Assembly (NCBI RefSeq): GCF_009914755.1
Contig: NC_060936.1
Reading direction: 5' to 3' (one strand)
DNA length: 64,000 bases
From: the human T2T-CHM13v2.0 reference genome, Homo sapiens
The notes under the pieces are model-generated. The model searched no databases, was not told the origin of the DNA, and worked only from the letters and a program-made list of their open reading frames with translations. This document shows positions 48,601 to 54,600 of this stretch, piece after piece. The position numbers and the translations under genes were made by a program. Positions within the stretch are counted from its first letter, which is position 1; every line of letters starts with the position of its first letter.

Positions 48601-51600
48601 AGTCGGGAGGCTGAGGCAGGAGAATCGCTTGAACCCAGGAGGTGGAGGTTGCAGTGAGCTGAGATCGCGCCATTGCACTCCAGCCTGGGCAACAAGAGCA
48701 AAACTCCGTCTCAAAAAAAAAAAAAAAAAATTAAGTTTCCTTTTTTTTGTTTGTTTTTTGAGATGGAGTCTTGCTCTGTCGCCCAGGCTGGAATGCAGTG
48801 GTTCAATCTCGGCTCACCGCAACCTCTGCCTCCCGGGTTCAAGCGATTCTTCTGGCTCAGCTTCCCGAGTAGCTGGGATTACAGGTGAGTGCCACCAAGC
48901 CCGGCTAATTTTTGTATTTTTAGTAGAGATGGGGTTTTACCATGTTGGCCAGGCTGGTCTCGAACTGCTGACCTCAGGTGATCCACCCGCCTCAGCCTCC
49001 CAAAGTGCTGGGATTACAGGCATGAGCCACCGCCCCCAGCTAAGTTTCCTTTTTTTACTGTCTCCTTATTCTCTATCTTGGGCTGTTAGCCCAGTTCTCC
49101 ATCACGCTGGAGGGTCCTAACTGAGTCCCACTAGTGGGCACTGGAATTCAGAAAGTTGCATTTTCCTTCCTGAATCAAGGACCAGAAACAGTAAAACAAT
49201 AATAATAATAATAATAATAAAAGTTCATTTTCCATAATAAATTTGACTTCCTACCCCTGAAATGCTTCTACATAGGACCCCAGGGAGGAGGCCCCAAAAG
49301 CTTGGGCACCAAGAGGTGTTATTTTAATTATCTAGTTATTATTTGTATTTATTTACTTTTTTTTTTGCCCGCGAGCCCACGAGGCCCCGCGTGGTGTCAC
49401 TGGGCTGCGCGGGCGGGTCAGGAAAGGAGCGGAGCCCATGGGTGGGCGGGGCCAGGGGCCGGCGAGGGGCGGGGCGGGCCCCTCGGCGCTGCGGGCCTCA
49501 CCAGCTGGAAGCCGATCTTCCAGTCCTTCCAGTCCACCTGGGGGTTGTTGTCCCGCAAGCTGGAGGCCACGCTACGGGCTCGACGGGCCCCGTGAGGCGG
49601 GGGCGGGACCCTCAGGCGCTGCAAGGGGTGCGGCAGAGTCCCCCGCAGGTCGCGACGGCTGCGGGAGCCGGCCACGAGAGTGGTGAAGGAGCTGTATTTG
49701 TACAGGTCAAAGAGCGTCTGCTCTGTGATGCGGTCCAGCTCCTCCAGCTCCTCTTTAATTTCCGGGTACCTGAAGGGGCGAGGGGAAGAGGGTCAGGCCA
49801 GGGGCCCTGGAGCGAGTGTCTGGCCCCTCCGGGGTCAGGGTCCTCATCTGTGCCCCGGGAGGCCGGTCCATCCCGGAGAAGCCTGGGCGGGGCTGGGGTC
49901 GTCGTGGCGCCTCCTGGCCGTCCGGCGGTGAAGGGTAAACAGGTGTGTCCGCCGGGAAGGCGGAGGCCACGGCGAGCCCAGCCGGGACACTGTGGACTGT
50001 TTATTGAAGGAGAGAGGCAGGAGGCGCCTGTCGTCTGTGGGGCGCTCTCCCCCTCGCCCGGACCTAGAAGGGAACCCGGAACTTGTCTGCCCTTTCCCAA
50101 AGAGGGGAAGGGTGAGGGCCTCGGCCTTGGCGTGACCGCGGTACCCAGGTCATCCCGCCCTGATCCCCGCAGGCGAGTGTCGGTGGCCTTTCGGCTTGAG
50201 TGCCGCTTGGCACCGAAATCAAGAGTTCACAACTGAACTTTTAGAATCTCCAACTCTAAAAATACAGGATGCCCCACCCACCCCGCCTCCCTCCTCCAAA
50301 GACTGTTCTAATGTGTTTCGGGTGCGGCCTAAACACCGTAAATTAAACACAGCTCACTGTAAATCCCTACATTCCTTCTTAATACAATTCCTATTACCAT
50401 CTCCATCATGAAAGTCCAGAGTAGCAGGGCCTGAGGGATGTCATCTACCAAAACAAAACAAATATAGAACTAACAAACTGAACAAGGTTGCAGGGTACAC
50501 AACAAATACACAAAAAAAATTAATTGCATTTAGGCCGGGTGTGGTGGCTCACGCCTGTAATCCCAGCATTTTGGGAGGCCGAGGTGGGCAGATCACGGGG
50601 TCAGGGTATCGAGACCACCCTGGCTAACACGGTGAAACCCCGTCTTTACTAAAAAAAAAAAATACAAAAAATTAGCCGGGCTTGGTGGCGGGCGCCTGTA
50701 GTCCCAGCTACTCGGGAGGCTGAGGCAGGAGAATGGTGTGAACCCGGGAGACAGAGCTTGCAGTGAGCCGAGATCGCGCCACTACACTCCAGCCTGGGAG
50801 ACAGAGCGAGACTCCGTCTCAAAAAAAAAAAAAATTAATTGCATTTCCGTCTCAAAAAGAAATTAATTGCATTTCTACATGCTGGCAACAGAAAATTGGA
50901 AAACCAGAAATACAACAGCAATATTAAATAACATAAACAACATCAAATACATAGAAATAAATGTAACAAAAGATGTGCAAGACTGAAAAATATATTGAAA
51001 TCCCTGCTGAAATAAATCAAAGATCAGAATAAGTGGAGATATATATATATATGGATTCAACACAATCCCTATCAAAATTCCAGCTTTTTTTTTTTTTTTG
51101 GACAGGATCTTGCTCTGTCACCCAAGCTGGGGTGCAGTGACACAATCGCCGCTCACTGCAGCCTCCTCCTGGGCTCAAGCAATCCTCCCGCCTCAGCCTC
51201 CCTAGTAGCTGGGACCAAAAGTGTGCCACCACACCAAGCTAATTTTTATATTTTTTGTAGAGAGGGGGTTTCACCACGTTGCCCAGGCTGGACTCCAACT
51301 CCTGAGCCCAAGCAATCACCAGCCTCAGCCTCCTAAAGTGCTGGGATTGCAGGCGTGAGCCACTCACTGCACCCGGCCCCAGCAGGTATTTTTAAAGAAA
51401 TTGACATACTGCTTCTAAGATTTATCTGGAAATGCAAACAATCTAGAATAGCTAGAAAATTTTAGAAAAGAAGAGCCAAGTTGGAAAATGTATTCCTCCT
51501 GACTTTAGTATTTACTATAAAGCCACAGTAATCAAAACAATGCGGTTCTTGGTAAGGAGAGACAATAGATCAATGGAATAGAATAGAGTCCAGAAATAAA

Positions 51601-54600
51601 CTCATGCATAGATGGTCAACTGATTTTTGGCCAAAACACCAATTCAATTCAGTGTAGAAAATAAAATTTGTTAGCAGGTTCTGCTAGAACAACTGAATAC
51701 TGTATTGGAAAAAAAATGACCCTCAATCTCTACCTTATGCTATACAGGCAAAAATTAATTCAAGATGGATCATAACGTAAACATGAAATTCAGAACCATA
51801 AACACTCTAGAAGATGGAAGATATCTTCCTGACCTTGGGGTAGGCAAAATTCTCTTGTAAGAAAAATATCTAACAAATAATCCCTAGAACAACCGTATGT
51901 AGTAGGCACTTTATGAACAGACCTACATTTTTTTTTTTGAGACGGAGTCTCAATTGCCCAGGCTGGAGTGCAGTGCCGTGATCTCGGCTCACAAGCTCCG
52001 CCTCCGGGTTCACGCCATTCTCCTGCCTCAGCCTCCCTAGTAGCTGGGACTACAGGTGCGTGCCACCACGCCCGGCTAATTTTTTGTATTTTTAGTAGAG
52101 ACGGGGTTTCACCATGTTAGCCAGGATGGTCTCGATCTCCTGACTTCGTGATCCGCCCGTCTCGGCCTCCCAATGTGTTGGGATTACAGTCGTGAGCCAC
52201 CACGCCCAGCCGAACAGACCTACATTTTTAAAAGATTCTGACCCTGTACACAGCTAGTGAGAATATAAAATGATACGATCATTTTGGAAAACAATCTGGA
52301 AGTTCCTCAAAAAGTTAGATATAGAGTTACCATATAACCCATCCATTCCACTCCTAAGAGAAATGAAAGCATATGCCCCCACAACATACACACACAAATG
52401 TGCACAAATGTTCATACCAGTATTATTTCTAATAGCCAAAAAGTAGAAATAACCCAAATGTCCATCAATTGATGAACATATTAAGAAGGAATGTAGGGAT
52501 TTACAGTGAGCTGTGTTTAATTTACGGTGTTTAGGCCGCACCCGAAACACATTAGAACATAAAGATTTGTACATGAGGCTGGGTGCAGTGGCTCACACCT
52601 GTAATCCCGGCACTTTGGGAGGGCAAGGTGGGTGGATCACCTGAGGTCAAGAGTTCGAGACCAGACTGACCAACATGGAGAAACCCTGTCTCTACTAAAA
52701 ATGCAAAATTAGCCGGGCGTGGTGGCACATGCCTGTAATCCCAGCTACTCGGGAGGCTGAGGCAGGAGAATCGCTTGAACCCGGGAGGCGGAGGTTGCAG
52801 GGAGCCAAGATCTCGCCATTGCACTCCAGCCTGGGCAACCAGAGCGAAACTCCATCTCAAAAAAAAAAAAAAGAAAAAGATTTGTACATGAATGTTCATA
52901 GCCATTTTATTTATAATAGCCAAAAAGCCTGAAGCAACTCAAAGGTGTGTTGAAGGTGTGTGTTTGGCATTCTAGAAAACTTGCTCATTACTGCTAATTA
53001 AAAGAATGGTAATCCGCGGGGCATGGTGGCTCACACCTGTAATTCCAGAATTTTGGAAGGCCAAGTGGGTGGATCACTTGAGCTCAGAAGTTTGAGACCA
53101 GCCTGGGCAACACGACGAAACCTTGTATCTACAAAAAATACAAAAATTAGCCAGATGTGGTGGTGCACACCTGTAGTCCCAGCTACTCAGAAGACTGAGG
53201 CAGAAGAATTGCCTGATCCTGGGAGTTTGAGGCTACAGTGAGCCGTGATCGTGTGACTACACTCCAGCCTGGGCAACAGAGCAAGACCCTGTCTTAAAAA
53301 AATAAAAAAGAATGGCAATCATAGCTAGCATTTATTGAGCACTTACTATGAGCCAGGAACTATGGTATTAGAATGTGCATTATTTAATTGTTAAAAGAAG
53401 AACGTTAGGCAAAATTAAATTTAACAGAGTTGACTTGAGCAAAGAACGATGCTCAAATCAGGCAGCCCCTCAACCAGAATAGTCTCATCAAAACCACTCA
53501 GCAATAAAAAGGAACTGATACGTGCAAAAAACACAGGGAAGAATTCCAGAAACATTAAGCAAAATAAGTCAGACACACATACAAGAAAATACATACTGTA
53601 TGATCCCATTTATATGAATTCTATGAACAGACAAAACCAGTTGATAGAGATAGCATTCAGAAAATGACAGTGGGAGAGGAAGAGGAATTGATGGAAAGGG
53701 GGCACCGGGTAATGGGAGTGTTCAACATCTCGACTGTCAAACCTGAGTGGGCACTCAAGATTTGTTCATTTTATTGTACATCAGTTATGCCTCACTTAAA
53801 GAAAAAAATACCAGTGCAGGGTCTTACTTGCCAGATTCAGATTTAATGGGTCTGGGCTGGAGCCAGAACAAGGTTGTTTGAAAGAGCCCCCACGTGGTCC
53901 TAACGTGCAGCTACATTAACCACCGTCTAGTCCAGATCTTCACTTCCTCTTCCATTCAGCTCTATTTCCATCTCTACCAGAAAAGTCTAGCTGGCTGGGC
54001 CTTAGGCATCAGCTCTGGCAGCCCCTGAACTTCTCACAGGAGAAAATGTAGCTCTGGTTGAAGGTGTGTTTGGCATTCTAAGAGACTTGCTCGTTATTTA
54101 TAATTAAAAGAATGGCAAGCATAGCTAGCGTTTATTGAGCACTTATTATGAGCCAGGCACTGTGGTATTAGAATGTACATTATTTAATTGTTAAAAGAAA
54201 AACTTTAAACAAATTAAATTTAACTTGAGTTTCACTGAGCAAACAATGAACCTCGAATCGAGTGCCCCCTGCCCCCAACCAGAATAGATTCAGAGTGACT
54301 CTGGGGGCTGCTGCATGATTCGATAATATTCGTGGACAGGAAAAGGAAAGTGACCTACAGAAAACGGAAGTAAGGTACAGAAACACCCGGATTGGTTACA
54401 CCCCCGGCGTTTGCCTTATTTGGACAAGGTTTGACAAGTGGGCTGCCTTTCATTGGCCAAAACTCTGTGATTGCTATAAAGGTAGGTTATAGTGTGTTTA
54501 CATATCTAGTTAGGTGGCAGTTCACTATGCATGAAGAAACCTTTAGGACAAACTTTAAAAATGTAAAGAGGCAACTTTAGGCTAAAACTTATTTAACATG

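What the first reader, a model, noticed from the sequence alone, without database searches (positions are those of the whole stretch)
50304..52559. Perfect 81-bp inverted copy of non-repeat DNA, 2.1 kb apart, in SCNN1A intron 2
Seen: 50304-50384 and 52479-52559 are 81/81 identical reverse complements, including their CpGs, and match no repeat I recognise. Copy 1 flanks the exon-3 CpG island. Copy 2 sits at the junction of two homologous L1 3' segments, with no TSD or poly(A). Inference: copy 2 is a locally templated insertion (template switch during break repair). Intact CpGs inside an old L1 imply it is either very young or kept identical by gene conversion. In pre-mRNA the pair could form an 81-bp duplex about 535 nt upstream of the exon-3 acceptor, and in DNA it could mediate a 2.1-kb inversion.
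Basis: partly seen in the sequence, partly recalled or inferred. Interest (0 to 1): 0.8.

Follow-up and report, generated by a model that had tools for sequence, protein, structure and literature searches.

The report
Templated inverted 81-bp insertion, SCNN1A intron
An 81-base stretch next to SCNN1A exon 3 was copied backwards into an old L1 element 2.1 kb away by a DNA-copying slip, a known and probably harmless kind of mutation.

Summary
50304-50384 and 52479-52559 are an 81/81 perfect inverted repeat. It is the longest exact match of any kind in the window, and these are the only two copies found in the assembly.

- Copy 2 is flanked by a 7-nt direct repeat, GAACATA (52474-80 and 52555-61). 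Read as an insert, copy 2 has 5+2 nt of junction microhomology; copy 1 has 0+0. Only 22 of 126,044 control placements reach 7 nt.
- The 81-mer keeps CpG at the expected level (o/e 1.01), like the exon-3 CpG-island shore. The old L1 around copy 2 has o/e 0.14-0.30.
- The L1 piece inside the spacer is collinear with the L1 3' end. That argues against an inversion.
- Larger, closer old duplicates nearby are only 77-84% identical. That argues against gene conversion keeping the arms identical.

Best reading: one microhomology-mediated template-switch insertion, copy 1 to copy 2. It is much younger than the L1. Zero differences allow an age of up to roughly 11-33 My.

Whether it is fixed, polymorphic or private to CHM13 could not be tested. 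This is a known mutation class with an unusually distant template, and no function is shown.

The parts
50304..50384 (.). Copy 1 of the 81-mer: inferred donor (template), in unique DNA about 100 nt beyond the exon-3 CpG island
   Evidence: I4. No junction microhomology if treated as an insert (0+0) and CpG o/e 1.01. No above-chance similarity to L1.
52479..52559 (.). Copy 2 of the 81-mer: inferred templated inverted insertion
   Evidence: I4. 5+2 nt junction microhomology. It sits between L1 profile position ~244 and ~156-159.
52474..52480 (+). Left copy of the 7-nt direct repeat GAACATA. Its last 2 nt (TA) are the first 2 nt of copy 2.
52555..52561 (+). Right copy of the 7-nt direct repeat GAACATA. 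Its first 5 nt are the last 5 nt of copy 2.
50385..50442 (.). 58 nt of non-L1 DNA between copy 1 and the 5'-truncated start of the L1. It holds a weak candidate L1 target-site duplication (about 50419-50432).
   Evidence: no L1 similarity. (anchored match to 53812-53824, p about 0.03-0.06).
50443..52477 (+). L1A: old L1 ORF2-to-3' segment, plus orientation, interrupted by three Alus. It forms most of the spacer.
   Evidence: 68-76% identity to other genomic copies; 5' limit about 50443-50465; 3' part = profile 8 to ~244
50534..50822 (+). Alu in the spacer (young-looking; subfamily judged by eye only)
   Evidence: (SRP-type sub-threshold hits)
51099..51377 (-). Alu in the spacer
51937..52210 (-). 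Alu in the spacer
52561..52576 (+). Start of the duplicated L1 piece (L1B). It is also the left target-site duplication of the next Alu.
   Evidence: (D10)
52577..52876 (+). Alu with a 16-nt target-site duplication, inserted into L1B
   Evidence: (D10)
52877..52946 (+). Rest of L1B: an old direct duplicate of L1 profile positions 159-229, 76.6% identical to 52399-52461
52949..53487 (+). Element E: an old direct copy (82-84%) of 54057-54292, carrying a later Alu at about 53014-53312
53492..53800 (+). L1 3' part, collinear with L1A (profile 285-440 and beyond), ending in an A-rich tail at about 53800-53809
   Evidence: the tail was read
54057..54292 (+). E': the source or sister copy of element E
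49502..49769 (-). SCNN1A exon 3 inside a CpG-rich block (49400-50200: GC 0.70, CpG o/e 0.71)
   Evidence: Annotation given with the finding

Best explanation
Copy 2 (52479-52559) is a single microhomology-mediated templated insertion. A growing DNA end, at a stalled fork or during break repair, left its template inside an old L1. It re-annealed 2.1 kb away on the opposite-polarity template at copy 1 and copied 74-81 nt. It then returned to its original template 7 nt behind where it had left. One switch used 5 nt of microhomology (GAACA) and the other used 2 nt (TA), which leaves the 7-nt direct repeat GAACATA around the insert. Shown: the perfect identity, the microhomology, the insert's position in the L1, and the native orientation of the spacer. 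Inferred: the direction (copy 1 to copy 2), that it was a single event, the replicative or repair mechanism, and the age. The age is far younger than the L1 and the neighbouring old duplications, and anywhere from the present back to roughly 11-33 My. The result is a perfect 81-bp inverted repeat in SCNN1A intron 2. It is most likely selectively neutral.
For: (1) The arms are 81/81 identical and there are only two copies in the assembly. (2) As an insert, copy 2 has junction ambiguity of 5+2 nt and copy 1 has 0+0. When the 81-mer was placed in either orientation at 126,044 other window positions, 22 (1.7e-4) reached 7 nt or more. The 7 nt lie inside the identity with the donor, so they are microhomology, not a fill-in duplication. 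(3) CpG o/e is 1.01 for the 81-mer, 0.58 for its left flank and 0.71 for the exon-3 island. The old L1 and neighbouring pieces have 0.0-0.30. The sequence therefore looks native to the island shore, where copy 1 lies. (4) A 17-copy L1 profile places L1A at positions 8 to ~244, the following L1 piece at 159-229, and the L1 3' part at 285-440, all on the plus strand. Homology runs on to 53800. L1A is thus collinear with the L1 3' end. (5) If the pair were as old as the adjacent duplications (77-84% identity), 13-19 differences would be expected, giving P(0) of about 1e-6 or less. (6) The published signature of MMBIR templated insertions is an inverted copy of a nearby template flanked by microhomologies (PMC8421209, passages read). 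The four-point template-switch model allows point 4 to precede point 1, which matches the 7-nt re-copy (PMC7954356, passages read).
Against: No outgroup or second human haplotype could be examined, so the empty site has not been seen. The insert lies within about 3 nt of an older rearrangement junction (L1 position ~244 joined to ~156-159). That is a coincidence under an independent recent event; I estimate about 2% for landing this close to any repeat junction here, which is my own rough figure and not a computed one. The template is 2,094 nt away, much farther than the 100 nt or less searched by MMBSearch. CpG evidence rests on only 3 CpGs. One of the two microhomologies is only 2 nt. DNA-templated and RNA-templated copying cannot be told apart from the sequence.
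Confidence: 0.76

Rival explanations
1. RNA-templated version of the same insertion. A break at the L1 junction was repaired by reverse-transcribing a piece of SCNN1A intron-2 RNA, through a polymerase with reverse-transcriptase activity or L1 RT, without poly(A) or a true TSD.
For: The plus strand of copy 2 equals the sense sequence of the SCNN1A pre-mRNA at copy 1 (gene on the minus strand per the annotation). The 5-nt microhomology could have primed cDNA synthesis on that RNA. Templated-sequence insertions of RNA origin without TSD are described in the literature, but I recall this and did not read it here.
Against: A template only 2.1 kb away in cis is what a local DNA template switch predicts. 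As I recall, RNA-derived insertions usually come from distant, mostly processed transcripts. There are no editing-type or RT-type differences (81/81). It would need SCNN1A transcription in the germ line.
Confidence: 0.07
2. Old inverted repeat kept identical by gene conversion. Copy 2 arose together with the old composite insertion at the same L1 position, and the arms have evolved in concert since then.
For: Copy 2 lies exactly at the left junction of an old composite insertion made of two other locally templated pieces: an L1 159-229 duplicate and element E copied from 54057-54292. One three-template event would explain the position.
Against: The two other pieces of that composite are longer or closer direct repeats, yet they are only 76.6% and 82-84% identical to their sources. 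Local conversion has therefore not been effective here. 81-bp arms are short for mammalian homologous recombination (recalled knowledge). The full 7-nt GAACATA flanking repeat is unexplained in this model; at most 3 nt would serve as microhomology to L1. P(0 differences) without conversion is about 1e-6 or less.
Confidence: 0.04
3. Small inversion with a staggered break. The 2.1-kb spacer was inverted, and fill-in of a staggered cut duplicated the 81-mer in inverted orientation at the two breakpoints. One version has this re-orienting the inverted arm of a twin-primed L1.
For: Inverted duplications flanking an inverted segment are a known breakpoint signature (recalled). The arms bracket one L1 segment, and that segment overlaps the next L1 piece in L1 coordinates.
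Against: L1A (profile up to ~244) is collinear and co-oriented with the L1 3' part (285 onward). Its present orientation is therefore the original one. A candidate L1 target-site duplication links the present 5' flank to the 3' flank (anchored p about 0.03-0.06), while flanks predicted by the inversion models show no match (p 0.72 and 0.98). The overlapping L1 piece is explained by the old direct duplication. The model gives no reason for the 7-nt direct repeat.
Confidence: 0.03
4. Reverse direction: copy 2 is ancestral (filler captured at the old L1 junction) and copy 1 is the recent templated insertion.
For: The ends of copy 2 show weak anchored similarity to the L1 sequence expected to continue on each side (p 0.084 and 0.055). 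This direction would also explain why copy 2 sits exactly at the old junction.
Against: There is zero microhomology at either junction of copy 1, against 5+2 at copy 2. Three intact CpGs (o/e 1.01) are unlikely in a sequence that has sat in old L1 DNA, where o/e is 0.14-0.30. In an unanchored search, copy 2 has no above-chance similarity to the L1 consensus (533 of 1000 shuffles score as high).
Confidence: 0.03
5. Not a population variant: an assembly error or a mutation private to the CHM13 cell line.
For: Only one assembly could be examined. Perfect identity is what a very recent change would show.
Against: The junctions carry an orderly biological signature, 5+2 nt of microhomology and a clean 81-nt insert, which a misassembly would not be expected to produce. 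Nothing in the local sequence is a long exact repeat that could confuse assembly; the next longest exact match in the window is 75 nt of Alu-type sequence, elsewhere.
Confidence: 0.05

Closest known systems
MMBIR / FoSTeS templated insertions (MMB-TI; PMC8421209, passages read)
   Same: The insertion is an inverted copy of a nearby template in cis with microhomology at both junctions. No poly(A), no true TSD and no loss of flanking sequence. About 100 germline events of 25 bp or more per person are reported there.
   Different: The template is 2,094 nt away, whereas that study's search only considers templates within 100 bp. At 81 nt it is on the long side. Ancestral absence is not shown here.
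Short-range template switches, four-point model (PMC7954356, passages read; original 2017 paper recalled only)
   Same: A single excursion onto the opposite-polarity template creates a perfect inverted repeat. Here the order on the reference is 3-2-4-1, with point 4 seven nt before point 1. [quoted passage not shown]
   Different: Those events are found as mutation clusters within a small local region. This one is a pure 81-nt insertion with a kilobase-scale jump.
Templated insertions of polymerase-theta end joining and yeast fold-back insertions (PMC11724301, abstract only; the rest recalled)
   Same: Inverted templated filler at a repaired break, primed from microhomology.
   Different: Those inserts are mostly about 5-34 bp and copied from the immediate vicinity of the break.
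Inversions with inverted duplications at staggered breakpoints (recalled from Drosophila and human breakpoint studies; not read here)
   Same: Two inverted copies of a unique sequence bracket a segment.
   Different: Here the bracketed segment is in its original orientation.
Intronic inverted Alu pairs as dsRNA and ADAR substrates (PMC2533698, abstract only)
   Same: Inverted repeats in one intron are predicted to pair in the pre-mRNA.
   Different: The 81-bp stem is perfect and non-Alu, but it is shorter and less stable (-148.5 kcal/mol) than the Alu pairs beside it (-421 to -512 kcal/mol).

Membership tests
Microhomology-mediated templated insertion (MMBIR/FoSTeS type) | The inserted sequence is an inverted copy of a template in cis | tested here: met
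   81/81 reverse complement, 2,094 nt apart
Microhomology-mediated templated insertion (MMBIR/FoSTeS type) | Microhomology at the junctions between recipient and template | tested here: met
   5 nt + 2 nt at copy 2; 22 of 126,044 control placements reach 7 nt or more
Microhomology-mediated templated insertion (MMBIR/FoSTeS type) | Template in close proximity (100 bp or less in the MMBSearch operational definition) | tested here: not met
   The distance is 2,094 nt. This fails that tool's search criterion, but kilobase-range switches are accepted for FoSTeS/MMBIR (recalled).
Microhomology-mediated templated insertion (MMBIR/FoSTeS type) | The ancestral allele lacks the insert (empty site) | not testable with these tools
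   No primate or other human assembly is available. Scans of prokaryotic-genome and viral contig collections for a 31-nt core found nothing.
Retrotransposition-type insertion (L1 endonuclease, TSD + poly(A)) | Poly(A) tail and a target-site duplication outside the copied sequence | tested here: not met
   No A-tail at either end. The 7-nt repeat lies inside the 81-nt identity with the donor.
Inversion with staggered-break inverted duplication | The segment between the inverted copies is inverted relative to its ancestral context | tested here: not met
   L1A is collinear and co-oriented with the L1 3' part. There is a weak TSD in the present orientation.
Palindrome or inverted repeat homogenised by arm-to-arm gene conversion | Arm identity far above that of same-age neighbouring sequence, because of ongoing conversion | tested here: inconclusive
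   Arms are 100% identical, while adjacent old duplicates are 77-84%. Those longer and closer repeats are not homogenised, which argues against conversion but does not exclude it without outgroups.
Dispersed repeat family | Many copies elsewhere in the genome | tested here: not met
   Only the two local copies were found. No L1 similarity and no Rfam hit. Very old, diverged repeats are not excluded.

The most novel reading that the evidence does not exclude
The 81-bp perfect inverted repeat is a recent, lineage-specific gain with a function. It could close a perfect dsRNA stem around three Alus 534 nt upstream of SCNN1A exon 3, giving an ADAR or dsRNA-sensor substrate or a splicing modulator. 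At the DNA level it could act as a flip-switch for the 2.1-kb spacer, which carries the annotated first exon of lncRNA LOC105369626 (51371-51839). A related reading is that the L1 junction at 52476-52480 is a recurrent template-switch hotspot, hit once by an old composite insertion and again by this one.
Probability: 0.04. Interest if true: 0.55.

Novelty: new member of a known kind. Interest (0 to 1): 0.27.

Why it matters
This is a clean, fully readable example of a kilobase-range, 81-nt inverted templated insertion in a human germ-line genome, with both microhomologies preserved. Events like this are under-counted by tools that look for templates only within about 100 bp. It shows that direction and mechanism can be read from a single genome using junction microhomology, CpG content and the coordinates of the disrupted repeat. 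For SCNN1A itself nothing suggests an effect. The stem is weaker than neighbouring Alu pairs and lies deep in intron 2.

Tried and rejected
1. Twin priming plus re-inversion was my first working idea. I rejected it once the L1 profile showed L1A collinear with the L1 3' part and the overlapping piece to be an old direct duplicate.

2. Is the 81-mer (or the 58 nt after it) diverged L1 ORF2 contiguous with L1A? None of these checks found any sign of it:
- blastn against 30 L1 loci
- comparison with four copies that do continue upstream
- a 46-copy profile
- Smith-Waterman against shuffles (209, 97 and 279 of 300 shuffles score as high, against 0 of 300 for the positive control)
- Pfam on six frames (0 families)

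3. Homeology of the copy 2 ends to L1 gave anchored p values of 0.084 and 0.055 and nothing unanchored. This is too weak to use.

4. The L1 target-site duplication is not significant unanchored (p 0.25) and only suggestive when anchored (0.029 by shuffling; 0.057 over 1,189 window 30-mers).

5. I looked for independent copies of the locus in prokaryotic-genome contigs and viral contigs, hoping for host contamination. There were 0 hits in each.

6. Four literature searches found nothing about this locus. I therefore know of no published description, within that library only.

7. blastn of 53600-53900 against the held L1 loci found nothing at E<=1e-3. nhmmer then showed L1 homology reaching 53800 with one copy and 53715-53730 with others.

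I used loci already held plus the L1 copy inside the window (about 43742-43978) instead.

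
Full report
**Observation**

The two arms, 50304-50384 and 52479-52559, are 81 nt long, 100% complementary and 2,094 nt apart (pair I4; re-verified). The bases just outside the arms do not pair, so the repeat has sharp ends.
- It is the longest exact match, direct or inverted, in the 64-kb window. The runners-up printed are Alu-type sequence or one short tandem repeat (297 inverted and 412 direct exact matches of 20 nt or more).
- Searches of the window's own 3.1-Gb assembly with the 81-mer, and with a 171-nt stretch around copy 1, returned only these two places. 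The tool warns that its counts are lower bounds, and it is not sensitive to old diverged copies.
- Neither arm matches an Rfam family at E<=1. All 14 hits in 50150-52700 are Alu-derived and map the four Alus and their strands.

**Surroundings**

Reading left to right on the plus strand:
- SCNN1A exon 3 (49502-49769, minus strand) lies in a CpG-rich block. 49400-50200 has GC 0.70 and CpG o/e 0.71.
- About 100 nt of unique DNA follows, then copy 1, then 58 nt with no detectable L1 similarity.
- From about 50443 an old L1 ORF2 segment (L1A) runs on the plus strand. It is 68-76% identical to other genomic copies and is interrupted by three Alus.
- The 5' limit of L1A was checked four ways. blastn against 30 other L1 loci gives significant hits only from 50443 onward. 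Four other copies stay mutually homologous for 170-250 nt further upstream, whereas the window does not. A 46-copy profile aligns only 50465-50515, with envelope 50445-50523. Copy 1, the 58 nt and the left flank score no better than shuffles against the upstream L1 consensus, while the positive control beats all 300 shuffles.

A 17-copy profile of the L1 3' region gives the coordinates that matter:
- L1A covers profile positions 8 to about 244 (window 52243-52477).
- Copy 2 comes next.
- An L1 piece covering profile 159-229 follows (52561-52576 plus 52877-52946). It is split by an Alu with a 16-nt target-site duplication (D10).
- A 540-nt element E follows (52949-53487).
- The L1 then resumes at profile 285 (53496) and runs to about 53800 and an A-rich tail.

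With Alus masked, a self-comparison finds exactly four repeat pairs in 49800-56000:
- the 81-mer at 100%
- the L1 duplicate at 76.6% over 64 nt
- two blocks of E against 54057-54292, at 84.4% and 82.3%

So an old event put a composite of two locally copied pieces into this L1 at about position 244, replacing positions 245-284. Those pieces have since diverged by about 16-23%.

**Which copy is derived, and how**

The decisive detail is a 7-nt direct repeat, GAACATA, at 52474-52480 and 52555-52561.
- Its last two bases on the left and first five on the right lie inside the 81-nt identity with copy 1. It is therefore not a fill-in target-site duplication. It is junction microhomology: 5 nt (GAACA) at one switch and 2 nt (TA) at the other.
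- Treated as an insert, copy 2 has 5+2 nt of ambiguity and copy 1 has 0+0.
- Placing the 81-mer in either orientation at 126,044 other window positions gives 7 nt or more in only 22 cases (1.7e-4).
- This fits a nascent strand that left its template after copying GAACATA, primed on copy 1 through TA, copied to the far end of the 81-mer, and re-annealed through GAACA to the site it had already copied. The mirror image on the other strand fits equally well.
- In the four-point notation the order is 3-2-4-1, with point 4 before point 1. [quoted passage not shown]
- An inverted copy of a nearby template flanked by microhomologies is the stated signature of MMBIR-type templated insertions. About 100 germ-line examples of 25 bp or more are reported per person (PMC8421209, passages).

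Independent support for the direction comes from CpG content. The 81-mer has 3 CpGs (o/e 1.01), like its left flank (0.58) and the island (0.71). The L1 and neighbouring pieces have 0.0-0.30. With only three CpGs this is supportive, not conclusive.

**Rivals**

- *Inversion with a staggered break.* This was my own first idea: re-inversion of a twin-primed L1 arm. It fails because L1A is co-oriented and collinear with the L1 3' part. The only hint of an L1 target-site duplication joins the present 5' flank to the 3' flank (anchored p about 0.03-0.06; unanchored p 0.25), and the flanks predicted by the inversion models show nothing.
- *Old repeat kept alike by gene conversion.* This would explain why copy 2 sits at the old junction. 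However, the longer or closer old duplicates beside it are not homogenised. Without conversion, 13-19 differences would be expected, giving P(0) of 1e-6 or less.
- *Reverse direction.* This is supported only by weak anchored similarity of the copy 2 ends to L1 (p 0.084 and 0.055). The junction and CpG evidence contradict it.
- *RNA template.* SCNN1A intron RNA has the sense sequence of copy 2's plus strand, so this cannot be excluded from sequence.
- *Assembly or cell-line artefact.* This cannot be excluded without reads, but the orderly junctions speak against misassembly.

**Age**

Using recalled per-site mutation rates, zero differences in 2 x 81 nt give a median of about 3-8 My and a 95% upper bound of about 11-33 My. 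The event is much younger than the L1 and the old composite insertion. It need not be human-specific, and it could equally be polymorphic or private. No outgroup or second haplotype was available, and contig scans found nothing.

**Consequences**

- In the minus-strand pre-mRNA the arms can form a perfect 81-bp duplex (-148.5 kcal/mol), ending 534 nt from the exon-3 acceptor. Three Alu pairs in the same stretch are predicted at -421 to -512 kcal/mol. The new stem therefore adds little to an intron already rich in dsRNA potential.
- Inversion of the spacer by recombination between 81-bp arms is possible in principle, but it is untested and the arms are short.
- The annotated first exon of lncRNA LOC105369626 (51371-51839) lies in the spacer.
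- No paper on this locus feature was found in four searches of the held library. Supplementary tables of structural-variant catalogues, which I did not search, might list an 81-bp insertion or deletion here.

**Verdict**

The direction is copy 1 to copy 2, with two switches using 5-nt and 2-nt microhomology and no inversion. This is a new member of a known mutation class. It is notable for the 2.1-kb jump and for hitting an old rearrangement junction. No function is indicated.

Noticed in passing
window 52477-53495 and 54057-54292: An older composite templated insertion sits in the same L1 at profile position ~244. It consists of a direct duplicate of L1 positions 159-229 (76.6% to 52399-52461) followed by a 240-nt direct copy (82-84%) of sequence now at 54057-54292. 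It replaces L1 positions 245-284 and predates an old-looking Alu at about 53014-53312. The 81-mer landed within about 3 nt of its left junction.
   Followed up: partly
window 50813-50873: The 3' end of the first spacer Alu, together with its target-site duplication, is repeated in tandem with a 33-nt offset (family D5: 50813-50840 versus 50846-50873, 79%).
   Followed up: no
window 52561-52576 and 52877-52892: The Alu at 52577-52876 has a perfect 16-nt target-site duplication that begins 2 nt after the end of copy 2. The inferred endonuclease nick site of that Alu and the template-switch junction are therefore almost the same position.
   Followed up: no
window 55353-55422: A 47-nt exact direct match at a 23-nt offset indicates a short tandem repeat of a C-rich 23-mer.
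   Followed up: no
window 51371-51839: The annotated exon 1 of lncRNA LOC105369626 is built from the edge of an antisense Alu plus old L1 ORF2 sequence. It lies entirely inside the spacer between the two arms. Copy 2 falls in the lncRNA's first intron and copy 1 lies upstream of its start.
   Followed up: no
window 50530-50846, 51925-52216, 52577-52876: Oppositely oriented Alu pairs nested with the 81-mer arms are predicted to form much more stable RNA duplexes (-421 to -512 kcal/mol) than the 81-mer pair. Pairing of the first and third spacer Alus would bring the two 81-mer arms closer together in the RNA.
   Followed up: partly
window about 43742-43978: Another old L1 3' fragment of the same general type lies on the plus strand, 73% identical to L1A's 3' piece. 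It was used as an extra reference copy.
   Followed up: partly
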